From the NCBI GenBank assembly GCA_030605415.1, contig JAUWIJ010000001.1, forward strand, positions 91,514-155,513: a stretch of 64,000 bases of DNA, given 5' to 3'. The notes beneath the pieces were generated by a model. The model had not been told where the DNA came from. It was given only the letters and a program-made list of their open reading frames with translations, and ran no database searches. This document shows, piece by piece, positions 21,187-34,676 of the stretch (its first letter is position 1; each line of letters starts with the position of its first letter). The DNA comes from an archaeon (GTDB lineage Archaea; Nanobdellota; Nanobdellia; Pacearchaeales; GW2011-AR1). Both the position numbers and the translations under genes were made by a program.

Positions 21187-22125
21187 ATGAAAATACCAAA
21201 AATAAGTATCGGAATACCAATCTATAATGAAAAAGATACGCTAAAGCAAACGCTGATTTCTGTGTCTCTTGCTCTGAAAAAAATCAGCTTAAAATATGAA
21301 ATATTACTCTGTTTTAATGGAACTACTGATAATGGAATACAAGTTGCAAAAGAAATGAAAAATCATGAACCTAACATTAAAATTCTTGAAAGTGAGAATG
21401 GAAGAACTAAAGCAATGAAAAAGATAATTAATACGGCTAAAGGAGAGATGATTATTTTTTGCGATGCGGATATTATTGTAGACGAATATTGTTATTTCAA
21501 CATATTAAAAAAATTTCAAAATGAGAAAATTATAGCAGTTGTAGGTAACCCTATCCCCATAGAGAAAAAAGGAGTTTTATATCATATCTTAAATGCTCGT
21601 ATGATGAATTTTGGTTCAGAAATTTCTAGAAAACCCATTGATGGTTTCAAACATAAACCATTTGTCCATGGAAGAATTTTTATAATTAAAAGAGAATTCT
21701 TTATTAACAATTACTTATTTGAAGAAAGATTTGAAAATGCAATTAATGACGATATGTTTATAACACATTTAATAATATTGCAACATGGCAGAAAAGCAAT
21801 TACACATGAAGAGAATGCTAAAGTTAAATATTTACCTGTTCAATCCATAAATTCTTGGTGGCAAAAATGGGTTAGATTATGGGGAGATTTGGATTACCTA
21901 TACATTCAAAATCCAGAATTTAAGAAATTGAAATCCTTGATGAAAACAAAAATAGATTGGAATCTTATATCTAATAAACCCATATCATCCAGATTTTATT
22001 TTATAGCAGAAAGGTGTCTTCATTATTCAGGAAGATTTTATTTTAATATAACTAAAAAAGTTTATAGGAGGAAAAGATGTCTAAGGTTAAACGAGACAAA
22101 GAAGGAATTCCAGATAATGCAATAA
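21187..22125 (+). CDS. glycosyltransferase family 2
   Basis: IGIPIYNE, FNGTTDNG, IIFCDADI (DxD) and NDDMFI: GT-A fold motifs. Confidence 0.88.
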   Translation: MKIPKISIGIPIYNEKDTLKQTLISVSLALKKISLKYEILLCFNGTTDNGIQVAKEMKNHEPNIKILESENGRTKAMKKIINTAKGEMIIFCDADIIVDEYCYFNILKKFQNEKIIAVVGNPIPIEKKGVLYHILNARMMNFGSEISRKPIDGFKHKPFVHGRIFIIKREFFINNYLFEERFENAINDDMFITHLIILQHGRKAITHEENAKVKYLPVQSINSWWQKWVRLWGDLDYLYIQNPEFKKLKSLMKTKIDWNLISNKPISSRFYFIAERCLHYSGRFYFNITKKVYRRKRCLRLNETKKEFQIMQ

Positions 22126-23237
22126 AAATGACTGCTGGTCTTTCTTTGACAGAAAAATGCAATCTAAAATGTAAGCATTGCTACATTGGAGAGAAAGATT
22201 TATGGTTTGAAAAAGGATATAAGCCAAAAGAAATTACTATAGAACAAATAGAAAAATTAATACCAAAACTTCACCAAGTCAATGTTAAAAGAATTAATTT
22301 TGGCGGAGGGGAAGTTCCATTACATAAAGATTTTATTTTAATAGCAAAGAAATTGAATAATGCAGGTTTTGATATAGGACTAACAACCAACGGAACGACA
22401 TTCGAGATATACCGAGATTATTTACATTTATTTAATGACATTGGGGTAAGTATAGATTTTCCCGACGAAAGACATTCAAAATGGAGAGGCAGAAAAAATG
22501 TATTCAAAAGAGCGGTCAAAACATTAGAAAAACTTGTTGAAAGTAATATTAGAACTGAAATGAATACTTGTATTATGAATGTTAATTATGAAACTTTGCC
22601 TCAGTTGTACAAGCTTGCAAAAGATATTGGGGTAGATATGTGGAGGCTGAATAGGTTTCATTCATCAAAAAACGACGCACTAAGGTTTGGTGCAGATAAT
22701 TTGCCTAAAACAAAGGGATGTAGAATTAATAATAACTTGTCTTGTAGCATAGAGCAACTTAAAGAAACATTTGAATATTTGGCGAGCGTAACTCCAAGAA
22801 ATCAAAACTACGCTATCCCTGACCCACTATTTAGAACTTATGTAAATGGCAAAGGTGTTGTTAGGGGCAGTCCTTCTGGTAAAATTGCATTTAGAATTAT
22901 GTCTGATGGAGGAATAACCCCTAATGTATTCACTGATCAAATCGCAGGAAATATATTTTCAGATGAGCTTTCAGAAATAGTTCAAGGAGAAGTGTTTTCG
23001 CAATATCAAAAAAGAACTCCATCAGGCAAGTGTATAGGCTGTGCAAGTTATAATAATTGTGAAGGTGGAGATAAAACGGATTCATATTTAATTAAAGGAA
23101 ATATGAATTCTCCAGACCCGTATTGTTTTTTAGATACAAAAAAAAGAAATGACTTTAAATCAATTAAATTCGAGGATACAAAGTTTGTTCATGAAACATA
23201 TCTTGGAACAATTTATGTCCCAATTAAAAATGGTTAA
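22077..23237 (+). CDS. radical SAM protein with atypical SPASM domain
   Basis: CNLKCKHC, FGGGEVPL, TTNGT, VSIDF; C-terminal CIGCASYNNCEGGD...PDPYC. AGGAGG SD before ATG 22077. Confidence 0.9.
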   Translation: MSKVKRDKEGIPDNAIKMTAGLSLTEKCNLKCKHCYIGEKDLWFEKGYKPKEITIEQIEKLIPKLHQVNVKRINFGGGEVPLHKDFILIAKKLNNAGFDIGLTTNGTTFEIYRDYLHLFNDIGVSIDFPDERHSKWRGRKNVFKRAVKTLEKLVESNIRTEMNTCIMNVNYETLPQLYKLAKDIGVDMWRLNRFHSSKNDALRFGADNLPKTKGCRINNNLSCSIEQLKETFEYLASVTPRNQNYAIPDPLFRTYVNGKGVVRGSPSGKIAFRIMSDGGITPNVFTDQIAGNIFSDELSEIVQGEVFSQYQKRTPSGKCIGCASYNNCEGGDKTDSYLIKGNMNSPDPYCFLDTKKRNDFKSIKFEDTKFVHETYLGTIYVPIKNG

Positions 23238-23838
23238 AATAATTACTTTTGAAGGCTCAGATTATTCAGGAAAAACCGCTACGTTAAACCATTTAGCGAA
23301 AAAATTTAAAGAAGATAACAAATATTATTTTAATGAAGGAGCAGTCTATCCAACTGGGTTGTCCGCAAGGTTATCCTCAATCTCAAATCAATGTAATTCG
23401 TTTGAGAAAGAGTTTATTTATACTATGGGATATGTTTTAGATAGCGTTCAATCAGCCACAAATCATCCTCAAGATGAAAGGGTATTTTTTCAAGATAGAT
23501 ATTGGCCAAGTGTCGTTGCATATGGGAGGTTTTTTCATGATAGCAATTCTATACATAATAAGCAAGATTTCAGACCATTATTTTTATATCCTACTTCAAC
23601 AATTCTTCTTAGTTGTTCTTATCAAGAAAAGATTAATAGAAGTAATACTAGAGGGAGAAAATCTATTATAGATAAGTTTTTACTTAAAGACCCTTCAAAA
23701 TTAATTCAACTGGAAGATCAAATCGAAAAGTCTCTTGAAGGGCTTCCAAATATTTGCAGAATAGATACAACTGGAATACCAATCGAGGATGTAGCTTCAA
23801 AGATTAAACTTTATCTAAAAGATAATAAAATAATATGA
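23230..23838 (+). CDS. thymidylate (dNMP) kinase-like P-loop protein
   Basis: ITFEGSDYSGKT P-loop and FQDRYWPSVVAYG (TMPK DR motif). ATG at 23230 overlaps the upstream stop; ORF-track start 23149. Confidence 0.75.
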   Translation: MVKIITFEGSDYSGKTATLNHLAKKFKEDNKYYFNEGAVYPTGLSARLSSISNQCNSFEKEFIYTMGYVLDSVQSATNHPQDERVFFQDRYWPSVVAYGRFFHDSNSIHNKQDFRPLFLYPTSTILLSCSYQEKINRSNTRGRKSIIDKFLLKDPSKLIQLEDQIEKSLEGLPNICRIDTTGIPIEDVASKIKLYLKDNKII

Positions 23839-23875
23839 GAGAAACCTTTAATAAACAAGATAAATATAAAATCAT

Positions 23876-24346
23876 ATGGAAAAAAGAACGACAATTAGAA
23901 TTGGCGTAGTAATTTTGGATGGCTCTAGAATTCTAATTACAAAAATGCACAGGGAAAATTCAGAAGACATATATGTTTTGCCTGGCGGTGGAGTGGAACA
24001 TGGAGAAAGTTTGATTGATGCAGCTATTAGAGAAGTAAAGGAAGAAACTTGTTTAGATATTGAGGTTGAAAAAATTTTATACTTAAAAAATTTATATACT
24101 GATGAGGGACATTTTACCGAAGTGATAGTATTAGGTAAAATTATTGGTGGAAAGTTAGAAAAAGGAGTTGACCCAGAAGAAAAAGGAGTTGAAAAATTAA
24201 AAGCTGTTGAATATATCGATTTAAAGGATTTGGAAAATATAAATTTTCATCCAAGACAACTTAAAACACTTTTAAAAAAACATCATGAAGATAGCTTTAA
24301 TGGAGATGCCCAATATCTCGGTATATTCAAATATCCGGAGGATTGA
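23876..24346 (+). CDS. NUDIX hydrolase
   Basis: Nudix box GGVEHGESLIDAAIREVKEETCL. Confidence 0.92.
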   Translation: MEKRTTIRIGVVILDGSRILITKMHRENSEDIYVLPGGGVEHGESLIDAAIREVKEETCLDIEVEKILYLKNLYTDEGHFTEVIVLGKIIGGKLEKGVDPEEKGVEKLKAVEYIDLKDLENINFHPRQLKTLLKKHHEDSFNGDAQYLGIFKYPED

Positions 24347-25362
24347 TATTATTTAAAATGAAACATATAGTTACCGACAAAGAAAAATGCTTTACTTCTA
24401 CTGGAGAAAAATTACTATATCATACGGAAGAAATGAAAAAATTTCAAAATGAAGCGAAAGCGACTCCCATCGTTCTTCATATTATGCCTACAAGCGTTTG
24501 CAACCTTAAATGTGAATTTTGTTCAGTAAAAGATAGAAAAGTTTGTGAAATATTAAACCTAAAGACACAAATAATTCCCTTAATAAAAGAACTAAAAAGT
24601 AGAGGACTAAAAGCAGTTATTATTAGCGGAGGGGGAGAACCTTTACTTTATGAACATTTTGAGAAATTAATAGAATTTCTTTATAATAATAACCTCGATA
24701 TAGGACTAATTACAAATGGAACATTGTTATACAAATATGATAAAGAATTATTTGAAAAACTTACATGGATACGTGTTTCTATTAATTCAATTGAATATGG
24801 TGGGAAAGTGAATATTCCCAAATTAAGAAATCCGACTATGGGACTTAGCTATATTGTAACAAAAAAAACAACCAATCAAATGTTAAATAAAATTAAAAAT
24901 TTAGCTTTAGAAAATAATCTTGAATATGTAAGATTACTCCCAGATTGTGTACAACCACAAGATAAGATTATTGAATGGCATAAAAAAATTGAGAAAATTG
25001 TGAAGGAATTTGGCTCACCATTTTTTCATCAATACAAAGTTCCATCTTGCCCGAAAAATTGTTTTTTAGGATATTTTCACCCAGTTCTTTATTGTGATGG
25101 GAATATTTATCCTTGTGATTCTTTAGTTTTGAATGATCATGACAATCAGCAATTTAAAGAAAGTTTCATGATTTGTAATGCAAAAGATATAGGGAAAGTT
25201 TACGATAATTTAGCAAACAAGAGTTTAGTAGAAACGAAGACTCAATGTCCTAATTGTGTATTTGAAAGACAAAACAATCTTTTGGTTGATATAAAAAATA
25301 AGAAAATAAAAATTTCAAAAAAGAATGAATTAAAAGATATGAAACATATTAATTTTATATAA
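24343..25362 (+). CDS. radical SAM protein with Twitch/SPASM-like C-terminus
   Basis: CNLKCEFC, ISGGGEPLL, LITNGTLL, WIRVSIN; C-terminal CFLG...DGNIYPCD...CPNC. Confidence 0.9.
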   Translation: MILFKMKHIVTDKEKCFTSTGEKLLYHTEEMKKFQNEAKATPIVLHIMPTSVCNLKCEFCSVKDRKVCEILNLKTQIIPLIKELKSRGLKAVIISGGGEPLLYEHFEKLIEFLYNNNLDIGLITNGTLLYKYDKELFEKLTWIRVSINSIEYGGKVNIPKLRNPTMGLSYIVTKKTTNQMLNKIKNLALENNLEYVRLLPDCVQPQDKIIEWHKKIEKIVKEFGSPFFHQYKVPSCPKNCFLGYFHPVLYCDGNIYPCDSLVLNDHDNQQFKESFMICNAKDIGKVYDNLANKSLVETKTQCPNCVFERQNNLLVDIKNKKIKISKKNELKDMKHINFI

Positions 25363-26013
25363 ATGAAATCTCAAAAAATTACTGATAATTGTGAAGATTA
25401 TGATGAAGACTATTTCGAAAGAGGTTTATCCTCTGGGAAATCTGGATATGATAATTATAGATGGTTGCCGGAATTAACTATTAAGTTTGCATATAAAATA
25501 ATAAAAAAATTAAATTTGAGAGAAGGTGATAAGGTTCTTGATTATGGGTGTGCAAAGGGATTTCTTGTTAAGGCTCTTAGGATATTAGATATTGATGCGT
25601 ATGGTTGCGATATTTCTAATTATGCAATTAGAAATTCAGATATGGAAGTTAGAGAATATTGCAAACTAATAAGAAATAAAATTCCGTTTGCAGACGAGTT
25701 TAAGTGGGTTATAGCTAAGGATGTTTTTGAACATTTACATGAAAAAGAATTGGAGACTATATTAAAAAATATTTTAAAAACCAATAAGAATCTATTTGTT
25801 ATTGTTCCATTTGGAAAAAATAATAAATTTATTGTTCCAGCATATGATTTAGACATTACTCATAAGCTGGCTAAACCTTTGGATTGGTGGGAAAAGAAAT
25901 TCGAGAGCTGTGGTTGGAAGGTCGATAAATTTTCATATTTAATAGATGGAATGAAGGATAATTGGAAAAAATACAGTGAGGGGAATGGATTCTTTTTTTT
26001 GAAGAAAAGTTAA
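25363..26013 (+). CDS. class I SAM-dependent methyltransferase
   Basis: YDEDYF, VLDYGCAKG (motif I), YGCDIS, DVFEHL. Confidence 0.88.
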   Translation: MKSQKITDNCEDYDEDYFERGLSSGKSGYDNYRWLPELTIKFAYKIIKKLNLREGDKVLDYGCAKGFLVKALRILDIDAYGCDISNYAIRNSDMEVREYCKLIRNKIPFADEFKWVIAKDVFEHLHEKELETILKNILKTNKNLFVIVPFGKNNKFIVPAYDLDITHKLAKPLDWWEKKFESCGWKVDKFSYLIDGMKDNWKKYSEGNGFFFLKKS

Positions 26014-26138: not shown

Positions 26139-26588
26139 TTAAATACTTCCACTACTACCAGGTCCAACTGGCGCAGGTGCCGGTTCACTCGTCGCTGGCG
26201 CACTCGTCGCCGGCGCACTCGGGCTATCAGAACCACCACTACTTCGAGTAAGTCCATAAATAGCTCCACCAAGTAAAATTACACCGCCAATTGTTAAATA
26301 AGGATGTCTCTTTACCCAAGAATCCTCGCCCTTTTCCTCAGATGATTGTTCAGCTCCTTGATTTCGATTAACAGGAACTCCATTAACACTGCCCAAGCTT
26401 GCGCATCCACCCGCTGAAACCATCGAAAGTAATGCTAAACCAGCAACCCCGCCAGTGACATATTTTCCAGGTCTTGTATTTCTAACATAATTAAATAATC
26501 CACCTGCCTTGTAACCTCTGCCATCGACGTCATCCAAAACTCGCGACGTTCCATCGCTTGCCATCGTTTCTAAATATTCTTTTCTCAT
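26139..26588 (-). CDS. hypothetical membrane/lipoprotein-like protein with Pro/Ala/Ser-rich tail
   Basis: Hydrophobic segment ending AGGC (lipobox-like), a second TM helix, and an SAPAT repeat encoded by a 15-bp tandem at about 26186-26220. Confidence 0.55.
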   Translation of the reverse strand: MRKEYLETMASDGTSRVLDDVDGRGYKAGGLFNYVRNTRPGKYVTGGVAGLALLSMVSAGGCASLGSVNGVPVNRNQGAEQSSEEKGEDSWVKRHPYLTIGGVILLGGAIYGLTRSSGGSDSPSAPATSAPATSEPAPAPVGPGSSGSI

Positions 26589-26670: not shown

Positions 26671-27288
26671 CTAGACTATAATTAAATCGTGATCCATTAA
26701 GCAGAGATTCCACGCTTTCTGAAATCTACTTTTTGAAATTTTTTTATTTAGTCCTGCCTTATAGGGACCACTGTCATGATAAATTATTTCATCATTCCTA
26801 AATTCAGTTAAAATAATGTAGTGTCCAGAAAATTTATTAGGTTTTTTATTAAATACATCCCAATTAACTAAACATATAGGAATTTTTTCTTGTTGGATTT
26901 TTCTTTCAAGGGTTTCTATTGGTAGCTTATCTTTAATCGCAATTATTCCCGAAGAATTTTGGACTTCTTTGATAGATTTATTTAAAGCAATAAAATTCAT
27001 ATTTGAAGTTACTTTAGAACCATAAGCCTTTTGTGTGTAATTTTGTATATTCGGAGACTGAGCAAAAGTTAATCCCTCAGGTTTAATATAATACTCAAAA
27101 GGAACTTGTAACTGATGGAAACCATAAGCTATTTGAATTGGAAGAGTAATTTGTGGATCTTGATGTAGTGTCAAATTATCTAATTCCTCAAAAGTAAAAT
27201 TTCTATTTGGCAATCTTACTTTTAAGACAGATTTCATTGTAGCTTGAGCACATCTATGCCCATAGTTTTTATGTAAAGGGGTAATCAT
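26671..27288 (-). CDS. C39-like (papain-fold) cysteine peptidase
   Basis: Cys in GHRCAQATMKSVL, His in SGHYIIL, Asp in IYHDSG: the Cys-His-Asp order of C39-type peptidases. TAATG overlap with the upstream peptide gene. Confidence 0.75.
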   Translation of the reverse strand: MITPLHKNYGHRCAQATMKSVLKVRLPNRNFTFEELDNLTLHQDPQITLPIQIAYGFHQLQVPFEYYIKPEGLTFAQSPNIQNYTQKAYGSKVTSNMNFIALNKSIKEVQNSSGIIAIKDKLPIETLERKIQQEKIPICLVNWDVFNKKPNKFSGHYIILTEFRNDEIIYHDSGPYKAGLNKKISKSRFQKAWNLCLMDHDLIIV

Positions 27289-27626
27289 TATTTAGGCCCA
27301 AAATCTTTATGGCCTCCATAATATCTATCTCCCCATCCTCCTCCACCCGTATCGCTATAATCGCTATGTTTTGTATGATCCACATGTCTTCTTGGTGCTG
27401 ATTTAGTGCAGTCGCTATGACTACTTCTTTCAGAATAATTCTCTCCAGTATAATAATCGCTATGTTTTGTTCCACTATCACTATATGTCTTATTATCACT
27501 ATAGTTAAATATAAAACCGCCTCTCTCTTTCACAGCTCTTAGAATATGTGGATTTTTAATTTTATCAAATTCAATTTTATGTCCCATTATTTCACATTTT
27601 TTTGGTAACCCGTTTTTTTCTTTCAT
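27288..27626 (-). CDS. putative RiPP precursor peptide with [Y/H]-x-[D/E] repeats
   Basis: 112 aa; leader ends ..KNPHILRAVKERGG, followed by nine YSD/HSD/YSE/HVD/HKD motifs. GGAG SD; TAATG overlaps on both sides. Confidence 0.75.
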   Translation of the reverse strand: MKEKNGLPKKCEIMGHKIEFDKIKNPHILRAVKERGGFIFNYSDNKTYSDSGTKHSDYYTGENYSERSSHSDCTKSAPRRHVDHTKHSDYSDTGGGGWGDRYYGGHKDFGPK

Positions 27627-28723
27627 TATTTCTTGTCTCCTTTTATTTCGGCCTTTGTTAATTCTGTATGTACTTTTGATTCAATGTGCTTAAACATCAT
27701 TTTATATCCCACACAATAAGGATCTTTCCCCATTATATCTCCGCCAATTAAGGCATTATGTTGACATCCGCTATTACAAATCGGACCATACTCGCATTGT
27801 TTACATTCTGTTATTTTTTCCAATCCTCTTTCCTTGAGTTTCTTTCGTATATCTGATTCAAGTGCCTTTGCCATATCATTTTTCTCATTTACATTTCCCA
27901 TCCAATAATTTTTTAGTCCATCAAATCTTCCACAAGGATAAATGTCTCCTTGGGGTCCTACTGAAATAAAACTATCTTGACAAGATTTTGAGTAATTACA
28001 TCCATTCGGTCTGCCAGACATTAAATTTCCCATAATCTGACTAAATGGGTCCACTTCAATTGCATCATAATCATCTATCCATCTATCAAATAACGTATTC
28101 ATTGCTTTCGCATATTCTATTGGAGAGATTCCGAAGTTTGTATCTTTTGTATCAATTATATGATTTAATTTTAATCCTATTTCGTTTTTATTAAAAAATT
28201 CATAAATTTGGTCAAGGTGTGGTAAGTTATGTTTGTTAACTACAGCTATTGCACCACTTCCCACAAAAGCTTTTCTATCTTGTGCCATTTTTATTCCTCG
28301 AAAAATATCTCTAAATGCCCCATCTCCATTTGCGTAAATTCTGGTTTTGTTGCTTATATCTTCAGGTCCATCAAGACTAAATCCTAAATAAAAATCTTTT
28401 TCTTTTTCTATAAAATCCAATAATTCCTTAGATACAAGAGTTCCGTTGGTTTGTATGCTGTTTGAGAAACCCTTATTTTGTTTTTTAAACTCATGCGAGA
28501 GTAAAGATATTTCTTTGAAAAAATTTAATCCTGCCAATAATGGCTCTCCTCCATGCCATATAAAATGCGCTTCTTCTTTATTTGAATTTTCTACAACTTG
28601 GTCTATTGTATTATGAAGAGTCTCTTTTGACATCATACCTTTCTCTGCACCTTTTTCTATGTAGCAATATTTACATCTAAGGTTACAATTATGAGTAGGT
28701 TTTACAATTGCTGTTAATCCCAT
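27626..28723 (-). CDS. radical SAM/SPASM peptide maturase (anSME-like subfamily)
   Basis: IVKPTHNCNLRCKYCY, WHGGEPLL, IQTNGTL, SLDGP; SPASM CNYSKSC...GDIYPC...CKQCEYGPICNSGC...DPYC (8 Cys). Confidence 0.92.
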   Translation of the reverse strand: MGLTAIVKPTHNCNLRCKYCYIEKGAEKGMMSKETLHNTIDQVVENSNKEEAHFIWHGGEPLLAGLNFFKEISLLSHEFKKQNKGFSNSIQTNGTLVSKELLDFIEKEKDFYLGFSLDGPEDISNKTRIYANGDGAFRDIFRGIKMAQDRKAFVGSGAIAVVNKHNLPHLDQIYEFFNKNEIGLKLNHIIDTKDTNFGISPIEYAKAMNTLFDRWIDDYDAIEVDPFSQIMGNLMSGRPNGCNYSKSCQDSFISVGPQGDIYPCGRFDGLKNYWMGNVNEKNDMAKALESDIRKKLKERGLEKITECKQCEYGPICNSGCQHNALIGGDIMGKDPYCVGYKMMFKHIESKVHTELTKAEIKGDKK

Positions 28724-28806: not shown

Positions 28807-30477
28807 ATGAATAAGAAAGAAGATGAAAAGAAAAAAGAGAAAGATGAAAAGAAAAAAGTAAAAAAGTATTCTTTTTTAGATAAAAGTGCTGAGAAGCAAG
28901 ATATAAATTATACCATCAAGGAAGTCATGACCAAGGCTCACAAACCAGGAGAATTAGCAGCTATGGGAATGTGGGAATGGCTTTATGATGATAAAGATGA
29001 CAAGATAGGAAAATTTAAGCCAATCTCCTCGCACAGATTGGGTTTTGATTCACAACAGAACCAGTTGGAGCCAACATATTATTGGCTATTAGACTGGTTG
29101 GGCGAGAGAGGCTGGGATTTAAAAAAGATTATTGATAATTTTATGGCATCACCTGGGTCAGGACAATTTTCCGAAATGAATATGAAAGCAACAAAAATGC
29201 AAGAGGAAGGAATGAAAATTCTTGGAGGTATGAATCAGGTTGTGAAATCCGTTCTGAATTTGATTTATGATTTGAAAGAGTTTGAGTTGAGATTGGAGCA
29301 TTACGATGATGCTAACAATAAGGACGATAAACAAAAGAGAGAGGAAGGGATGTTAGCATTAAAACAAATATGGCTGGATAATGTTGACCTAAAGAGAGGC
29401 CGAGGCTCAGTTCATCAGATGGCGGCAGAGCTTGGTTTTACGACGCTAAGAGAAGCGTTTATGATGGCTAATTCTATTGAAGATTTGAAAAAAATGAATA
29501 AGGATGAAGAAGGCGGAATGATTAATGACCAGGTCATGAGAATTTTGATTCCAAGAATTAGCGAATTTTTAAAATGGACAGACTATTCAGAAAAAGAATT
29601 AAGAAAAAGATTCAGCATAGAAAAAAATTATTTAAAGTCTCAGGTTGAAACGATTAAATTATATTCTGCATGGATGAAGCCATACTTAGTTGCGGCGGAA
29701 AAATTGAGACAAAAAGGTTTTGACAACCATTCAGCTTTGGTTAACGCATTTTCGACCTCGATGTTTGAGTTGCAATTATTCGGGAAACAACCTGTAAAAC
29801 TCACAGATGTTTATGACGGAAACTATAATATAAAAAGAGAATATAATGCAGTTCTAATTATCGGGCTCGAATTTCGCGGACATGTTTCACAAAGGGTAAC
29901 GCAAAAAGGAGACTACGGATTTGCGATGGGAGGAAAAGTTGATATGACTTTCGATTGTTACGCTTTGAATGATGAAGAATTAGCGACGGCAAATAAATTG
30001 TTGGAAGATACAGATGTTGAAAAAAGTCTGGAGTTTTCGGCAGATATCGCAGGAGATGCTTTGACAGATTTGAAAGAAGATTTGGATTATTTTTTGACAA
30101 GCAAAGAAGATAAAGATAAGATAGATGCCAAAGACAAAAAGAAAGAGAAAAAATCCCAAGATATTAATCCGTTTGCGGCGTTATTTGGATTAGATAAGAA
30201 AAAGAACAAGAAAACGAAAAATGAAGAGGAAGTTATAATTTTAGCGCCAGAAGATATTAAGAAAGATAATTTCGTTGAAAAAATGATGAGGGGTGCAGCG
30301 GCTAAAAGTGCTGCAGATTGGTTATACTTGGCTTATGATATATATAAGAAAGCCCACAAAATGGCCTCAGCACCTGGTGAAGGATTTGATAAGCTCGACG
30401 AAGAAGCTGTAGAACGTTATGAAGAGGGTGGCAATGTAGGATTCACCGGAGCTTTCAAAAGCAAAAAAAGTAATTAG
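28807..30477 (+). CDS. hypothetical protein (largely helical, Lys-rich ends)
   Basis: Long 556-aa ORF with normal coding composition; no recognisable motif. Confidence 0.7.
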   Translation: MNKKEDEKKKEKDEKKKVKKYSFLDKSAEKQDINYTIKEVMTKAHKPGELAAMGMWEWLYDDKDDKIGKFKPISSHRLGFDSQQNQLEPTYYWLLDWLGERGWDLKKIIDNFMASPGSGQFSEMNMKATKMQEEGMKILGGMNQVVKSVLNLIYDLKEFELRLEHYDDANNKDDKQKREEGMLALKQIWLDNVDLKRGRGSVHQMAAELGFTTLREAFMMANSIEDLKKMNKDEEGGMINDQVMRILIPRISEFLKWTDYSEKELRKRFSIEKNYLKSQVETIKLYSAWMKPYLVAAEKLRQKGFDNHSALVNAFSTSMFELQLFGKQPVKLTDVYDGNYNIKREYNAVLIIGLEFRGHVSQRVTQKGDYGFAMGGKVDMTFDCYALNDEELATANKLLEDTDVEKSLEFSADIAGDALTDLKEDLDYFLTSKEDKDKIDAKDKKKEKKSQDINPFAALFGLDKKKNKKTKNEEEVIILAPEDIKKDNFVEKMMRGAAAKSAADWLYLAYDIYKKAHKMASAPGEGFDKLDEEAVERYEEGGNVGFTGAFKSKKSN

Positions 30478-30510
30478 TAAAGTAGATAAAGTTTGTTTCT
30501 ATTGAATTAT

Positions 30511-31125
30511 ATGACAAAAAAGAAATCGGAAACCAAAAAAGACACCAAAACCAACGAAGAGAAAAACATCTTAATAGAAGAAAGTGTCAAGGAGAAAGAT
30601 GCCGACAAAAACAGTAACTCAGAAGAAGCCGGAATTTTTGATGAAGATTTAAATGATATTGACGAAACTGTCGACGACGTTAGTGATTTTTCTATTGGAA
30701 ACACAATTTTATCGTCGGCGCCATTGGCACATGGGCAACACGGACGAAGGGGACATAATTTAGAAGAACTTGCCGAGAGGAAAAAAACTGAAGATTCTAA
30801 GTGGAATGATTCTGGCGAATTTGACAAAAAAGAAAATTTAGGAAGAGATTTTTACGGAACAACTCAAAAAGTAAACGACTTATATAAAAATGGAAACAAT
30901 AACCAGGATTTGTACAACGAAAGAAACGGCGATTTATATTCCGGCGAAAACAATAAGACCGATGTTTACGATGTTAAAAAAAGTAACATTAAAAATTATG
31001 GGGCACTGGTGGACAATCGACATTCGGGTCGTTCAATGTTAGAAGTTGCCGGATTTGAAGACAAGGAAAAACAAAAACAAAGAAACATGCGAGGACTCGT
31101 CAAATATGAAGGAAAGGAAGAATAG
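30511..31125 (+). CDS. hypothetical acidic, low-complexity protein
   Basis: Open ORF rich in D/E/N; ATG at 30511. Confidence 0.6.
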   Translation: MTKKKSETKKDTKTNEEKNILIEESVKEKDADKNSNSEEAGIFDEDLNDIDETVDDVSDFSIGNTILSSAPLAHGQHGRRGHNLEELAERKKTEDSKWNDSGEFDKKENLGRDFYGTTQKVNDLYKNGNNNQDLYNERNGDLYSGENNKTDVYDVKKSNIKNYGALVDNRHSGRSMLEVAGFEDKEKQKQRNMRGLVKYEGKEE

Positions 31126-31168
31126 AGTTATATTTAAATAATAAGTTTCATTTATTTCTTGAGGTGAT

Positions 31169-33145
31169 ATGGCATACAATACTACGAATTACGAATCTTT
31201 TTACGGCGGAGGAACAAGTTCGCTCAGTCCCGATTATGGAAATTTTACCGGCTATCGAATGAGCGCTGCGCAATTGGGTTTTCCGGGTTCGCCACAAACG
31301 GCAAATCAATTAGGGGAAACGGTCAATGCAATAAAACAAGGCGTAAAAGCATTTGAGGTTACAATGCTTATGCCAGAAACAGCTGAAGTAATTCCCACAC
31401 AACATTTTCAAGAAATGAGAGCACTAATGAAACTTAGCGGAGTTAAACCGTCGGTGCACGGTCCTTTGATTGATGCGGCGGGCTTTAATGATAAAGGATG
31501 GGGAGGCGAAGAAGGGCAGGCAGACAATGAACGAAGAATGTTTGACGCAATTGAGAAAGCGCATATATTAGATCCCAAAGGAAACATCCCCATTGTTTTT
31601 CATTCTTCCAACGGAACACCTGGCGCTGAATGGAAACCGGGCGATAAATCTCTTGGAGAAGATAAATTTGTAATGGAAAAAGGCTCCGCAATTAATCGAG
31701 AAACCGGGCAAATGATTGCGATTAAAAGAGAATATAAATTTCGACTGGACCAACCTGAATATTTAGAAAAGGGACAAGTTAAGGGAGGACCAAAAGGTGT
31801 TTTGTTTGATGCCGAAGGAACTGTCGGCTCCGCGAATTTGGGCGAGTGGGAAAACAAAATGACCGAGATTGCGCAAATGAATAAACACGCAGAGGAAATT
31901 ATTGGAGCTGCACCTATAAATTTGGAAGGATACGAAAATGCTGCGATTAGAAAAGATGGTGAAGTTATTGTTGATATGAGGACAGGAAAGACATTAGCTC
32001 CTTTTAATAGTGAAGGAAGAGAAAATCAGGTTGAGGCATATAATAAAATGAGGAAGGCGGGGCTTTTTCTTGAAAATTCAGAGCTGTCTTTTAATACGGC
32101 ATTTCATCAGGCATATAAATATGGCACCGATAAACAGAAAAAAGAATTGAAAGAATTGTCCAAGGAGTATACTACAGCGATGTATGGAGATAAAAAAACT
32201 TTAGGGGCAAAGCAGGTTGATGAAAAATTTATTTCTATTTATGGACCACAGAAGAGAATACATATTTTGAATGCGACATTGGAAAAGATGGGAGAAATTA
32301 CTGAAAATAAAATGGTCGTTAAAGATGGAGAATATGTTCTTAAAAATGGAAAGAGGTTTAAAGATAAAGATTACGGGACACCACAAATTTTTCAAGAAAC
32401 TGAAAAATTTGCTATGGGAAAAGCATCTCAGACTTTTGGGAATTTGGCTATGAAATCTTATGATAAGTTTGAGGAAAATGCTCCGGTAATTGCAATTGAA
32501 AACATGTTTCAGGGAATGGCATTTTCGCGAGCAGAAGATATGAAGAAATTAGTTGAGATGTCGAGGAAGAATTTTATTAAGCAATTAATTTCTAAGAAAG
32601 GAATAGACGAAAAAAAAGCCAAGAGTATTGCGGATAAACATTTGGGTGTGACTTGGGACGTCGGACATATTAATGTGATGAAAAAGAAAGGATTTACAGA
32701 TAAAGATGTTATTGAACAAACGAAAAAGATTGCACCGATGGTTAAACATATTCACCTGACGGATAATTTCGGCTATGCAGATACACACTTGGCACCAGGA
32801 ATGGGAAATGTTCCGATTAAGGGAATTTTGGAAGAGTTAGAAAAGACTGGGCGATTTGACGAAATGAGAAAAATTACAGAAGCCGGAGGTTTTGTTCAGC
32901 AATTTAAAAAGTCTCCCCACCCAATGACAATGGCCGCGTTTGGCTCACCAATTTACGGAATGAAATCTGCTCCTTACTGGAATCAGGTGATGGATATTCA
33001 GGGCTCGTATTTTGGAGGCTACGGAACAGTTAGTCCTTCTCAACATCATTCAATGTATGGCTCGGGGTTTACAACAATGCCGGTTGAGTTAGGCGGACAG
33101 ATGCCTGGTGGGCAGTCGCGGTTTGGCGGAACACCGATGGCGTAG
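31169..33145 (+). CDS. xylose isomerase/AP endonuclease 2-like TIM-barrel protein with large insertion
   Basis: Metal-binding motifs SVHGP, IAIENM, TWDVGH, HIHLTDN..DTHLAPGMG. GAGGTGA SD. Confidence 0.75.
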   Translation: MAYNTTNYESFYGGGTSSLSPDYGNFTGYRMSAAQLGFPGSPQTANQLGETVNAIKQGVKAFEVTMLMPETAEVIPTQHFQEMRALMKLSGVKPSVHGPLIDAAGFNDKGWGGEEGQADNERRMFDAIEKAHILDPKGNIPIVFHSSNGTPGAEWKPGDKSLGEDKFVMEKGSAINRETGQMIAIKREYKFRLDQPEYLEKGQVKGGPKGVLFDAEGTVGSANLGEWENKMTEIAQMNKHAEEIIGAAPINLEGYENAAIRKDGEVIVDMRTGKTLAPFNSEGRENQVEAYNKMRKAGLFLENSELSFNTAFHQAYKYGTDKQKKELKELSKEYTTAMYGDKKTLGAKQVDEKFISIYGPQKRIHILNATLEKMGEITENKMVVKDGEYVLKNGKRFKDKDYGTPQIFQETEKFAMGKASQTFGNLAMKSYDKFEENAPVIAIENMFQGMAFSRAEDMKKLVEMSRKNFIKQLISKKGIDEKKAKSIADKHLGVTWDVGHINVMKKKGFTDKDVIEQTKKIAPMVKHIHLTDNFGYADTHLAPGMGNVPIKGILEELEKTGRFDEMRKITEAGGFVQQFKKSPHPMTMAAFGSPIYGMKSAPYWNQVMDIQGSYFGGYGTVSPSQHHSMYGSGFTTMPVELGGQMPGGQSRFGGTPMA

Positions 33146-33279: not shown

Positions 33280-33800
33280 TTATGTCTCCAATATCTCTCT
33301 CATTAATTCAAAAAACTCTTTTGCTCTATTTAAAGATGTTTGAGCTTTTGATTCTTTTATATTTTCAGTAGTTTCATATTGAAAACTTGCTCTTTTGGCT
33401 TTTTCTCTTTCGTAATTATCTAAATAATTATCTACTACAATTAATGCCTTTTGTTTTTCTTCAGAATAATTTTCTAAAAGATGATTTTTTATTTTATGTC
33501 TTCCCTGAACAATCAACGATTCATTCACAACTTGGTGAACAATTTCATTTCCTGGCTTATAGCCTAATTTGTAAAGATATGCGCAAGCCATATAAAACAT
33601 AGAATAATAACTTGTTACAACAACCCACAACGAAGAAGTTTTGTTTTGAGATAATTGAGTCGCAGAGTTCAAACTTCTCTTGCATTCCTTAGATAAGTAT
33701 TGTATATCAATTCATTAAACTTATCTATTTTCTTAATTTTATTATCTCTTATGTAATTTATAAAATTATTCTCCGCCTGTTTTATTCTTTTGTTGTCCAT
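33280..33800 (-). pseudogene. HEPN-domain protein interrupted by a 1-nt deletion frameshift near 33675
   Basis: The frame from ATG 33800 reads MDNKRIKQAENNF...YLRNAREV*. Restoring one A (GAA[A]GT TTG AAC) gives ..RESLNSA.. and joins the 33280-33672 frame containing WVVVTSYYSMFY, the HEPN YY-x-M-F-Y motif. Confidence 0.8.
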
Positions 33801-34378
33801 TTTGATATGAGATTATAATAATTCTCTATTCCATAAAGAATAATATTGCTTTTAATTATTTCGTGACCCAAATTATTTCGCTTTTTTTCTATCATTGAAA
33901 CGAATTCTTTAGTGGTGAATTCCTGAACTTCAATTTTTAGACTGAATAAGTTTAACATTTCCATTAGTTTGCCTATTTTTATTTTATTATCAGAGATTAT
34001 ACAAATATCTAAATCTGATGTCCGGGTATTTTTTCTATTTGCAAAAGAGCCAAAGATAAGGACAATCATAAACGGATAATTAATTTCATTAATATCTTTA
34101 ACTATTAATTTTATTTTAGGATTTTTAGATAAAAATTCTTTTGTTCTTTTTTCTTCAATGGAGAGAGTTTCAATATTATTACCCTGATTAAATTCAATCA
34201 AGCAGGTATTTCCCTGTTTTTTCTTAGAATGTGTCTCGGGATTTAAATTTCCAAGTGCCTGAGAGGTATTTTTATAATCAGCTTTTAATTTTTGAGAGAT
34301 TTCTCTTATGGAATGTGGGGAATCTTTGTTTTCAATTAAAAATTTTAGTATTTTTTCCTTTAGGGTATATGCTACCAT
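33782..34378 (-). CDS. HTH-fused minimal nucleotidyltransferase (MNT antitoxin-like)
   Basis: N-terminal HTH (SIREISQKLKADY), LIFGSFA...SDLDICIIS (GS..DxD) and IILYGIE. Overlaps the HEPN start. Confidence 0.88.
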   Translation of the reverse strand: MVAYTLKEKILKFLIENKDSPHSIREISQKLKADYKNTSQALGNLNPETHSKKKQGNTCLIEFNQGNNIETLSIEEKRTKEFLSKNPKIKLIVKDINEINYPFMIVLIFGSFANRKNTRTSDLDICIISDNKIKIGKLMEMLNLFSLKIEVQEFTTKEFVSMIEKKRNNLGHEIIKSNIILYGIENYYNLISKWTTKE

Positions 34379-34390: not shown

Positions 34391-34676
34391 TTAATAGCCA
34401 TATTTAAATGTTTTGATGGTTGTGATTGGTTTCTACCGCAAACTAATAATACTCAATCTTTTCCCACCCAAAAATAGACATTAAATCCATTTCAATTATT
34501 TCTTTTACAAATTTGTCTCTTATTTTTGAGATTAATTATTTTTTATACTAAATTAACTTCTTTATGTTTTATATTGTTTTTTAGTGAATTTTCCTGACAT
34601 ATTTATTAATTAACTTTAAAATCCCTAATCTTTTAAATAAAATAAGGTGACTATTTTTATTGTCAATTATATTAAT

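What the first reader, a model, noticed from the sequence alone, without database searches (positions are those of the whole stretch)
27288..27626. Precursor architecture: leader-GG-core with nine [Y/H]-x-[D/E] motifs
Seen: residues 1-37 (..KNPHILRAVKERGG) end in a Gly-Gly pair. The core then carries YSD42, YSD48, HSD55, YSE64, HSD70, HVD81, HSD87, YSD90 and HKD106 separated by 0-13 residue spacers, plus a GGGGWG stretch. The DNA shows recurrent ATCGCTAT-like units on the + strand. Established: double-glycine leaders are the canonical C39 cleavage site. Inference: cleavage after G37 releases a 75-aa core with up to nine His/Tyr-Asp crosslinks, or the core is cut into several short products. 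A His/Asp-rich product could alternatively bind metal.
Basis: partly seen in the sequence, partly recalled or inferred. Interest (0 to 1): 0.85.

Follow-up and report, generated by a model that had tools for sequence, protein, structure and literature searches.

The report
Archaeal His/Tyr-x-acid RiPP precursor peptide

Summary
ORF 27288-27626 (minus strand, 112 aa) carries nine [Y/H]-x-[D/E] triplets at the stated residues, plus WGD98, against 2.0±1.2 in shuffles.

It lies between a radical SAM/SPASM enzyme and a C39-fold cysteine peptidase, joined by two TAATG overlaps.

An exhaustive HMMER search found 44 family members including the query; one more came from a fetched locus, giving 45. No Pfam or NCBIfam model matches them.
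- They share a leader, (E-I-M-G-H)-x-[IV]-x-L-x-x-I-x-N-P-H-[IL]-R-R-A-[IV]-x-x-R, then F-[LIM]-F-x-Y-[GS]-[DE].
- Aromatic-x-acidic triplets number 436 against 154 expected (z=28.7, only at spacing i/i+2). Eight of the nine triplets sit in conserved columns.
- A homologous rSAM lies directly upstream of the precursor(s) in 13 loci (Nano-/Woese-/Pacearchaeota MAGs and one Kiritimatiellae MAG).

Best reading: an unannotated, triceptide-like RiPP family with rSAM-made cross-links between the His/Tyr ring and the Asp/Glu side chain two residues on. YxdB (Tyr-Asp) and HaaB/YhhB/HtkB (His-based cross-links) are precedents.

The double-glycine idea fails. GG precedes the core in 6 of 45 members, and the window's is the only one of eleven precursors in six peptidase-bearing loci with GG there.

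Chemistry, cut site and function remain untested. I class it as a new member of a known kind.

The parts
27626..28723 (-). Radical SAM/SPASM maturase, 365 aa. It has no N-terminal RRE: the CX3CX2C motif starts at C13.
   Evidence: Pfam Radical_SAM, Fer4_12 and SPASM. Best NCBIfam matches are DynA 280.8 bits (cut-off 450), AnSME 240.5 (349) and TIGR04083 205.7 (300), all below cut-off. PDB matches: AnSME 4K37 2.8e-40, CteB 5WGG, ChlB 9GM3. All 11 Cys (13, 17, 20, 242, 248, 264, 307, 310, 316, 320, 337) are invariant in 11 orthologues. Its stop overlaps the precursor start in TAATG.
27288..27626 (-). Precursor peptide gene, 112 aa (the finding itself).
   Evidence: ORF. 44 family members including the query in an exhaustive HMMER search. 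No Pfam, NCBIfam or PHROG match.
27516..27626 (-). Leader region, residues 1-37. Predicted β-hairpin (10-13/16-19, G15 at the turn) plus helix 26-35 (N-P-H-I-L-R-A-V-K-E), then a variable G/N/D/A linker that is GG in this copy.
   Evidence: Conserved columns G15 41/42, I23 40/45, N25 44/45, P26 44/45, R35 41/45. AF2 on the 45-sequence alignment gives pLDDT 84-89 for residues 11-30 with strands 10-13 and 16-19 and helix 26-35.
27495..27515 (-). Junction block F38-I-F-N-Y-S-D44. It is the most conserved part of the family and contains the first aromatic-x-acidic triplet.
   Evidence: F38 43/45, F40 42/45, aromatic at 42 in 39/45, acidic at 44 in 41/45.
27291..27494 (-). Remainder of the core, residues 45-112. 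It carries triplets YSD48, HSD55, YSE64, HSD70, HVD81, HSD87, YSD90, WGD98 and HKD106, and is predicted disordered.
   Evidence: Positions. Column conservation of the triplets at 48, 55, 64, 70, 81, 87, 90 and 98. HKD106 lies in a tail unique to this copy. pLDDT 53-72 with no secondary structure.
26671..27288 (-). Stand-alone C39-fold cysteine peptidase, 205 aa. Probable triad is Cys13 / His156 / Asp172.
   Evidence: PF09778 at 35.2 bits, above its cut-off of 28.1. Precomputed PF13529 Peptidase_C39_2. AF2 pLDDT 91.1. Foldseek top hits are ComA peptidase domain 3K8U, PCAT1 and LahT 6MPZ. His156 is invariant; Cys13 is present in all full-length homologues. Its start overlaps the precursor stop in TAATG.
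26139..26588 (-). Downstream 149-aa ORF with hydrophobic, membrane-like stretches and a low-complexity tail. Whether it belongs to the cassette is doubtful.
   Evidence: ORF. No family match. Not seen at the corresponding position in the other loci.

Best explanation
The ORF encodes the precursor of an unannotated RiPP family found mainly in DPANN-type (Nano-/Woese-/Pacearchaeota) archaea.

Proposed pathway:
1. The three genes rSAM-precursor-peptidase are co-translated.
2. The radical SAM/SPASM enzyme recognises the folded leader (β-hairpin + N-P-H-[IL]-R-R-A helix) and the F-x-F strand. (Inferred.)
3. It then works along the disordered core. At each [His/Tyr]-x-[Asp/Glu] triplet, 5'-deoxyadenosyl radical abstracts a side-chain hydrogen of the acidic residue. 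The carbon radical adds to the ring two residues upstream (Tyr C3 or His C2). An auxiliary Fe-S cluster takes the electron. The result is a three-residue cyclophane (-2 Da each, up to about 9-10 in this peptide). (Inferred by analogy to triceptide synthases.)
4. The C39-fold peptidase then removes the leader at a site that is not a conserved Gly-Gly. (Inferred.)

Shown here: gene order and coupling, family-wide conservation of leader and triplets, enzyme class, peptidase fold. Inferred: the cross-link chemistry, the cut site and the biological role.
For: 1. Coupled operon: TAATG overlaps at 27626 and 27288.
2. The enzyme is a complete rSAM/SPASM with 3+8 invariant Cys. Its nearest curated relatives are the cross-linking maturase DynA and AnSME, and it also matches the triceptide synthase ChlB in the PDB.
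3. A homologous rSAM sits directly upstream of one to three such precursors in 13 loci: the window, L001, L011, L014, L015, L016, L017, L018, L020, L022, L023, L027 and L028. rSAM identity runs down to about 41-44% and includes a bacterial MAG.
4. Triplet statistics over 45 precursors: 436 against 154 expected, z=28.7, at offset +2 only. 77% of all His, 71% of Tyr and 77% of Asp lie in such triplets. The triplets sit in conserved columns.
5. AF2 gives a structured leader and a disordered core, the usual RiPP precursor anatomy.
6. Experimental precedents: YxdB forms Tyr-C3 to Asp-Cβ, HaaB/YhhB/HtkB form His-C2 to Cβ of X3, and OscB links Trp-C7 to Asn/Asp-Cβ (PMC11002830, PMC11499958). Mixed Tyr and His motifs are handled by one enzyme in minviopeptin (PMC12912966).
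7. The genome has no sulfatase, so the enzyme is not a working AnSME.
Against: - No chemistry was measured.
- The rSAM fails the curated cut-off of every cyclophane-synthase model (YhhB 142.9/445, GrrM/OscB 128.4/310, AmcB 112.2/425, FxsB 102.5/370). Pairwise, it is closer to AnSME than to ChlB.
- The middle residue is Ser/Thr in 46% of triplets, which leaves room for chemistry on X2.
- His-x-Asp/Glu cross-links and cross-links to Glu are not, to my knowledge, characterised.
- The peptidase is absent from 7 of the 13 loci, and it occurs alone in a syntenic relative (L026), so its link to the peptide is not obligatory.
- One genome has an orphan precursor with no rSAM match anywhere in the assembly (G284).
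- No exporter is encoded in the cassette.
Confidence: 0.62

Rival explanations
1. Same precursor/enzyme pair, but different bond chemistry. The rSAM would make C-N (His Nτ to Cβ) or C-O (Tyr-O to Cβ ether) links as dynobactin/darobactin-type enzymes do, or link the ring to Cγ of Glu, rather than the classical triceptide C-C to Cβ bond.
For: The best-scoring curated family is the dynobactin maturase (280.8 bits, full-length alignment 1-355/356). That enzyme makes both a C-C and a His-N to Cβ link (PMC11002830). 30% of X3 residues are Glu (130/436), for which no triceptide precedent was found in the papers read.
Against: The score is far below the DynA cut-off of 450. For Tyr-x-Asp a C-C link is the characterised outcome (YxdB). 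Nothing in the sequence distinguishes the bond types.
Confidence: 0.15
2. AnSME-like oxidation of the middle residue. The enzyme would convert the Ser/Thr (or Cys) at X2 of H-S-D / Y-S-E into formylglycine/keto residues (or further into aminomalonate), giving a reactive or metal-binding peptide without rings.
For: The second-best family and the best PDB match are anaerobic sulfatase-maturating enzyme. X2 is Ser or Thr in 200 of 436 triplets. From my own knowledge (Ma et al., Angew. Chem. 2021, cited as ref. 18 in PMC11499958), 3-CyFEs can produce formylglycine and aminomalonate in vitro.
Against: X2 is the least conserved of the three positions (G, R, K, D, N and others make up 54%), whereas positions 1 and 3 are the constrained ones. 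There is no C/S-x-P-x-R sulfatase motif. There is no sulfatase in the genome. The score is below the AnSME cut-off.
Confidence: 0.08
3. One reading: a canonical double-glycine leader cut after G37 by the C39 peptidase, releasing a 75-aa core.
For: GG is present at 36-37. The downstream gene has the fold of GG-motif peptidases (ComA, PCAT1, LahT). The leader/core boundary does lie near here according to conservation and the AF2 model.
Against: GG occurs in 6/45 members. In peptidase-bearing loci the corresponding dipeptides are NN, RQ, GD, KD, KQ, QD, KS and AY/SY. The -4/-7 positions are not hydrophobic. The peptidase is not fused to an ABC exporter. G/N/D/A at these positions fit a helix C-cap/linker just as well.
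Confidence: 0.1
4. Not a modified peptide at all. It would be a small acidic His/Tyr-rich disordered protein (metal-binding or structural) that merely neighbours an rSAM with another substrate.
For: The His/Asp/Glu/Tyr composition is typical of metal ligands. One genome has the peptide without the rSAM (G284).
Against: The rSAM is immediately adjacent in 13 loci across distant lineages, with 1-nt overlaps or gaps of a few bases in most. Loci carry one to three tandem paralogous precursors per rSAM. The leader is conserved and the core more variable. The spacing is strictly i/i+2.
Confidence: 0.05

Closest known systems
Triceptides made by three-residue cyclophane-forming rSAM/SPASM enzymes (3-CyFEs), especially YxdB (Tyr-C3 to Asp-Cβ) and the His-modifying HaaB, YhhB, HtkB and MicB
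   Same: An rSAM/SPASM maturase sits next to a small precursor. The motif is aromatic(i)-x-X(i+2), repeated several times per core. Tyr and His act as ring donors. Asp as X3 has precedent (YxdB, OscB). One enzyme can handle mixed Tyr/His motifs (YhhB, MicB).
   Different: - The rSAM is below the curated cut-off of every NCBIfam cyclophane-synthase model, and the precursor matches no model.
- The hosts are mostly DPANN-type archaea rather than bacteria.
- X3 is almost exclusively acidic, including Glu.
- There are 9-18 motifs per peptide.
- The core is a conserved ordered series of blocks.
- A stand-alone C39-fold peptidase is often attached.
- The product is uncharacterised.
Dynobactin/darobactin maturases (NCBIfam NF041298 DynA, NF038005 DarE)
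   Same: DynA is the best-scoring curated family, aligned over its full length. Both are rSAM/SPASM enzymes without an RRE that cross-link ring residues to a Cβ a few residues away, including a His-based link.
   Different: The score is 280.8 against a cut-off of 450. The precursors are unrelated (no W-N-S-N-V-H-S-Y-R-F-like core). There is no Gram-negative producer or BamA context. Many sites are involved, not two.
Anaerobic sulfatase-maturating enzyme (AnSME, TIGR03942; PDB 4K36-4K39)
   Same: Same size and architecture, with the CX3CX2C motif at the very N-terminus and an 8-Cys SPASM domain. AnSME is the best PDB sequence match.
   Different: The score is below cut-off (240.5/349). The genome has no sulfatase. 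The gene is coupled to a dedicated small peptide lacking the C/S-x-P-x-R motif.
Double-glycine leader peptides processed by C39 peptidases (ComA, PCAT1, LahT)
   Same: The downstream protein has this fold and a Cys/His pair. This copy of the precursor happens to have GG at the leader/core junction.
   Different: GG is not conserved (6/45). The peptidase is stand-alone (205 aa, with a roughly 70-residue insertion relative to ComA PEP) and not fused to an ABC transporter. Its best Pfam model is PF09778, not PF03412.
His-Xaa-Ser system (HxsA repeat peptide with HxsB/HxsC rSAMs; TIGR03978/03977)
   Same: A His-x-small-residue repeat peptide is paired with radical SAM maturases.
   Different: HxsB scores only 103 bits against a cut-off of 370. 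There is a single rSAM, not a pair. The conserved third position is Asp/Glu, not Ser.

Membership tests
Triceptide / 3-CyFE RiPP | rSAM maturase with a SPASM domain (CX3CX2C plus two auxiliary-cluster Cys sets) | tested here: met
   Pfam Radical_SAM + SPASM. Cys 13/17/20 and eight SPASM Cys are invariant in 11 orthologues.
Triceptide / 3-CyFE RiPP | Adjacent precursor with conserved aromatic-X2-X3 motifs | tested here: met
   Nine [YH]x[DE] here. Family-wide 436 against 154 expected, z=28.7 at i/i+2 only. Triplets fall in conserved columns. rSAM and precursor are adjacent in 13 loci.
Triceptide / 3-CyFE RiPP | Aromatic-carbon to Cβ C-C cross-link forming a three-residue cyclophane (-2 Da per motif) | not testable with these tools
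   Needs co-expression plus MS/NMR. Precedents are only from the literature (PMC11002830, PMC11499958).
Triceptide / 3-CyFE RiPP | Maturase scores above the curated cut-off of a characterised cyclophane-synthase family (YhhB, GrrM/OscB, AmcB, FxsB) | tested here: not met
   142.9/445, 128.4/310, 112.2/425 and 102.5/370 bits.
Dynobactin maturase DynA (NF041298) | Score at or above 450 bits, with a dynobactin-type precursor | tested here: not met
   280.8 bits. The precursor is unrelated.
Anaerobic sulfatase-maturating enzyme | Score at or above 349 bits on TIGR03942 and a sulfatase substrate in the genome | tested here: not met
   240.5 bits. PF00884 finds nothing in the 888-kb, 89%-complete genome, while the controls ring.
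Double-glycine (C39-processed) leader peptides | Papain-like C39 peptidase with catalytic Cys/His encoded with the precursor | tested here: met
   AF2 pLDDT 91. Foldseek hits ComA PEP, PCAT1 and LahT. Cys13 and His156 are conserved. The peptidase is present in 6 of 13 loci.
Double-glycine (C39-processed) leader peptides | Conserved GG (or GA/GS) at the end of the leader, with hydrophobic -4/-7/-12 | tested here: not met
   GG in 6/45 members. Of eleven precursors in six peptidase-bearing loci, only the window's has GG. In this copy -4 is E and -7 is A.
Double-glycine (C39-processed) leader peptides | Peptidase fused to or paired with an ABC exporter (PCAT) | tested here: not met
   The peptidase is a stand-alone 205-aa protein. 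The nearest ABC transporter (34647-36473, +) is about 6 kb from the cassette, beyond five unrelated genes (including a HEPN/nucleotidyltransferase pair), and has no C39 domain.
His-Xaa-Ser (Hxs) system | Paired HxsB/HxsC rSAMs with a His-x-Ser repeat peptide | tested here: not met
   HxsB scores 103.1/370 bits. There is a single rSAM in the cassette. The third motif position is Asp/Glu.

The most novel reading that the evidence does not exclude
The enzyme installs a cross-link type not yet described: His or Tyr ring to the side chain of Asp and of Glu, at nine or more consecutive sites on one peptide. The product would be a rigid ladder of small rings that keeps free carboxylates and imidazole nitrogens, working as a ribosomal metal-chelating peptide (or a host-interaction factor) for a genome-reduced symbiotic archaeon. 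A stand-alone C39-fold enzyme would process it at a non-Gly-Gly site. This would be the first characterised RiPP of DPANN archaea.
Probability: 0.2. Interest if true: 0.75.

Novelty: new member of a known kind. Interest (0 to 1): 0.55.

Why it matters
- **No reported precedent in the host group.** My literature searches found no RiPP family described for DPANN archaea. These organisms are thought to have almost no secondary metabolism. A dedicated, horizontally scattered peptide-modification cassette in an 0.9-Mb genome suggests the product matters for their symbiotic or competitive life.
- **New substrates for a known enzyme class.** The family offers a natural set of substrates with many His-x-Asp/Glu and Tyr-x-Asp/Glu motifs. 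It would extend the known scope of cyclophane-forming radical SAM enzymes to acidic X3, Glu, and very high cross-link density. It also provides a compact RRE-less enzyme with a small folded leader.
- **Annotation.** The family gives database curators a clear definition (leader motif, F-x-F-x-Y-[GS]-[DE] junction, triplet statistics). At present it is labelled only 'radical SAM protein' plus uncalled or hypothetical small ORFs.

Tried and rejected
- **Word-indexed search with the precursor** found only itself. The exhaustive HMMER search was needed.
- **Pfam, NCBIfam and PHROGs** on the precursor and on all 45 family members gave no meaningful family.
- **DNA repeat element** behind the 'ATCGCTAT units': rejected. 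They are codon echoes of Y/H-S-D, with no tandem array over the triplet region.
- **Double-glycine leader:** rejected on conservation.
- **G15** (41/42 conserved, in I-M-G-H) as an alternative cut site: rejected. It sits at the turn of the predicted leader β-hairpin, and several members lack that N-terminal segment altogether.
- **Genuine AnSME:** rejected, because there is no sulfatase and the score is sub-threshold.
- **Functional link to the divergent neighbour trio** (556 aa / 210 aa / 658 aa): considered because homologues neighbour the cassette in L022, L026 and L028. L026 keeps the trio and the peptidase without rSAM or precursor. L011 and L027 show the cassette next to the Glu/Gln-tRNA synthetase gene that also flanks L026. 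The simpler reading is a conserved core-genome neighbourhood into which the cassette is inserted.
- **ABC transporter at 34647-36473** as exporter: no C39 domain, and unrelated genes lie between it and the cassette, so it is not counted as part.
- **Tools and papers not available:** The JACS 2022 triceptide landscape paper and the dynobactin paper are not held. The supplement of PMC11499958 is not held. I therefore could not check whether this clade appears in published triceptide similarity networks.
Full report
**1. What is there**

On the minus strand, three ORFs are chained by two TAATG stop/start overlaps:
- a 365-aa radical SAM/SPASM protein (27626-28723);
- the 112-aa ORF of the finding (27288-27626);
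- a 205-aa protein (26671-27288).

GG is at residues 36-37. The triplets are YSD42, YSD48, HSD55, YSE64, HSD70, HVD81, HSD87, YSD90 and HKD106. WGD98 and a GGGGWG stretch are also present. Composition-preserving shuffles of the core give 2.0±1.2 such triplets, and none of 20,000 reached 9.

The 'ATCGCTAT' DNA units are the reverse complement of Tyr/His-Ser-Asp codons. Five of the seven matches in the whole window lie in this ORF, and there is no tandem array over the triplet region.

**2. The organism**

The window lies in an 888-kb, 22-contig, 89%-complete genome. The closest rSAM homologue in named genomes (71% identity) is from 'MAG: archaeon SI037S2_bin81'. Other named homologues are from Candidatus Nanoarchaeia, Pacearchaeota, Nanoarchaeota and Woesearchaeota MAGs, plus one Kiritimatiellae bacterium. 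I infer a DPANN-type archaeon.

**3. A precursor family**

A word-indexed search found only the query itself. An exhaustive HMMER scan of 1.84 billion representatives found 44 proteins at E≤1e-3, eight of them at ≤1e-10. No Pfam, NCBIfam or PHROG model matches any of them.

The aligned family (45 sequences) has a well-conserved leader:
- I13 32/41 and G15 41/42;
- I23 40/45, N25 44/45 and P26 44/45;
- H27 27/45, R30 34/45 and R35 41/45.

A junction block follows: F38 43/45, F40 42/45, aromatic at position 42 in 39/45, acidic at position 44 in 41/45.

The core is then an ordered series of aromatic-x-acidic triplets in conserved columns. In the query's numbering these are 48-50, 55-57, 64-66, 70-72, 81-83, 87-89, 90-92 and 98-100. 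Only HKD106 lies in a tail private to this copy.

Over all cores there are 436 aromatic(i)/acidic(i+2) pairs against 154 expected (z=28.7). The next largest deviation at any other offset from -6 to +6 is z=7.4, which arises from triplets abutting each other. 77% of all His, 71% of Tyr and 77% of Asp belong to a triplet. X2 is Ser/Thr in 46% and otherwise varied.

AF2 on the alignment predicts a β-hairpin (10-13/16-19) and a helix (26-35) at pLDDT 84-89. The core is predicted disordered. This is the usual anatomy of a RiPP precursor.

**4. The enzyme**

The rSAM has CX3CX2C at residues 13-20, so it has no N-terminal RRE. It has eight SPASM cysteines. All eleven Cys are invariant in eleven orthologues.

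| Curated NCBIfam model | Bits | Cut-off |
|---|---|---|
| DynA (dynobactin maturase) | 280.8 | 450 |
| AnSME | 240.5 | 349 |
| TIGR04083 | 205.7 | 300 |
| YhhB | 142.9 | 445 |
| GrrM/OscB | 128.4 | 310 |
| AmcB | 112.2 | 425 |
| HxsB | 103.1 | 370 |
| FxsB | 102.5 | 370 |

All scores are below cut-off. In the PDB it matches AnSME (2.8e-40), CteB and the triceptide synthase ChlB. The genome has no sulfatase, so a housekeeping AnSME role is excluded.

The enzyme is therefore an uncurated clade in the AnSME / daropeptide / 3-CyFE neighbourhood. The literature treats that neighbourhood as one evolutionary group (PMC12912966).

**5. Co-occurrence**

In every locus where I could read the DNA next to a homologous rSAM (down to about 41-44% identity), one to three precursors of this family follow it directly.

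| Locus | Precursors | Note |
|---|---|---|
| window | 1 | the finding |
| L001 | 2 | |
| L011 | 1 | |
| L014 | 1 | |
| L015 | 2 | |
| L016 | 1 | |
| L017 | 1 | uncalled ORF in the Kiritimatiellae MAG |
| L018 | 1 | |
| L020 | 2 | |
| L022 | 3 | |
| L023 | 1 | |
| L027 | 3 | |
| L028 | 1 | |

A profile of the leader finds the family in only 6 of 401 genomes sampled across the phylum (one of the six is a weak match to a 47-aa frame), each in a different genus. It finds none in the five same-genus genomes or the 16 listed same-family genomes. The cassette is therefore accessory and patchy.

One genome (G284) has a precursor but no rSAM match anywhere in the assembly.

**6. The peptidase**

The 205-aa protein passes PF09778 and carries a precomputed Peptidase_C39_2 hit. 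Its AF2 model (pLDDT 91.1) is most similar to the ComA peptidase domain, PCAT1 and the double-glycine protease LahT. Cys13 and His156 are conserved.

It is present in 6 of the 13 loci: the window, L014, L015, L020, L027 and L028. In L026, a syntenic relative, it stands alone without rSAM or precursor. Other proteins with this fold among the hits are amide-forming or isopeptidase enzymes (CtaG, PeiR). Its role as the leader peptidase is therefore an inference.

**7. The Gly-Gly question**

- GG precedes F38 in 6 of 45 members. Elsewhere the dipeptide is AG, GD, SN, NS, RD, NN, DE and others.
- Of the eleven precursors in the six peptidase-bearing loci, only the window's has GG. The others have NN, RQ, GD, KD, KQ, QD, KS and AY/SY.
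- The residues found at positions 36 and 37 (G, N, D, A) are those expected of a helix C-cap or linker after the predicted helix 26-35.
- The strongest conservation begins right after this point.

There is no evidence that GG is the recognition or cut site, and the true cut site is unknown.

**8. Mechanism proposed**

By analogy to characterised triceptide synthases, the rSAM most likely abstracts a side-chain hydrogen from the Asp/Glu at X3. It then couples that carbon to Tyr-C3 or His-C2 at position i, giving three-residue cyclophanes. The precedents are:
- YxdB: Tyr-C3 to Asp-Cβ;
- HaaB, YhhB, HtkB and MicB: His-C2 to Cβ of X3;
- OscB: Trp-C7 to Asn/Asp-Cβ

(PMC11002830, PMC11499958, PMC12912966).

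This peptide could carry up to about 9-10 such rings. Rival chemistries cannot be excluded from sequence. These are C-N or C-O links as in dynobactin/darobactin, Cγ of Glu, and oxidation of the X2 Ser/Thr. Function is unknown; the dense His/Asp/Glu/Tyr content makes metal binding a reasonable guess.

**9. Novelty**

The kind is known: an rSAM/SPASM-modified RiPP with aromatic-x-X motifs. This family is not captured by any curated model and is annotated only as 'radical SAM protein' or 'uncharacterized protein'. I did not find it in the literature I could search. I could not read the 2022 triceptide landscape paper, so prior inclusion in a similarity network cannot be ruled out. I rate it a new member of a known kind, of moderate interest.

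**10. Limits**

- No complex modelling was possible.
- No sequences of YxdB, HaaB or HtkB were available for a tree.

Noticed in passing
window 28807-33145 (+); also L022:2005-3129, L026:1-3412 (-), L028:4211-7645: A trio of unannotated genes sits beside the cassette in four loci: about 550 aa with a conserved L-I-Y-D-L-K-E-F-E-L-R-L core, about 200 aa acidic and low-complexity, and about 650 aa with a C-terminal xylose-isomerase-like TIM barrel (PF01261). It has no Pfam, NCBIfam or PHROG assignment apart from the barrel. It is probably a conserved core-genome block of these archaea. Function unknown.
   Followed up: partly
L026:3501-4118: A 63%-identical copy of the C39-fold peptidase stands alone between the trio and a Glu/Gln-tRNA synthetase gene. 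There is no rSAM or precursor, and only 88 bp of intergenic DNA where they would be. Either the cassette decayed or the peptidase has a role of its own.
   Followed up: partly
L017:5110-5486 (frame 3 of the stretch read): An uncalled ORF lies downstream of the rSAM in a Kiritimatiellae bacterial MAG. It ends ...GVTVDFSRIGNRHVRRALAR...HSDHTDVPYEEHHEYSESPHHTDNTTHTEYDDHREWGDWTD and is a member of the same precursor family. The cassette therefore crosses the archaea/bacteria boundary.
   Followed up: partly
L016:1588-2994: Three tandem paralogous small Cys-rich proteins share the N-terminus MNINNLPKIPSLEE[IV]M.ETGLNE. They sit upstream of a 332-aa unknown protein and the rSAM in a Nanoarchaeia MAG. 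This may be a second peptide family.
   Followed up: no
window 21187-26013 (+): Six co-oriented, mostly overlapping genes: a GT2 glycosyltransferase, an rSAM/SPASM (best GeoRSP/NirJ-like, weak viperin hit), a thymidylate-kinase-like protein, a NUDIX protein, a second rSAM (weak viperin/MoaA-like) and a methyltransferase. It looks like a nucleotide- or sugar-modifying cluster and is unrelated to the RiPP cassette.
   Followed up: no
window 33280-34378 (-): A HEPN-domain protein and a nucleotidyltransferase (Polbeta/NTP_transf_2) are joined by a further small ORF (33669-33800) whose ends overlap both. This is a typical HEPN/MNT toxin-antitoxin-like module between the trio and an ABC transporter.
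   Followed up: no
window 26139-26588 (-): A 149-aa ORF lies downstream of the peptidase, with hydrophobic, membrane-like stretches and an Ala/Pro/Ser/Thr-rich tail. It has no homologue at this position in the other loci and no family match.
   Followed up: partly
L021:1339-1626 (-) in genome G284: An orphan precursor of the family (…IENERILKVLRNR…FLFNYDDGKGRHTDHTDTHSD…) occurs in a 93%-complete genome with no detectable rSAM or peptidase homologue.
   Followed up: partly
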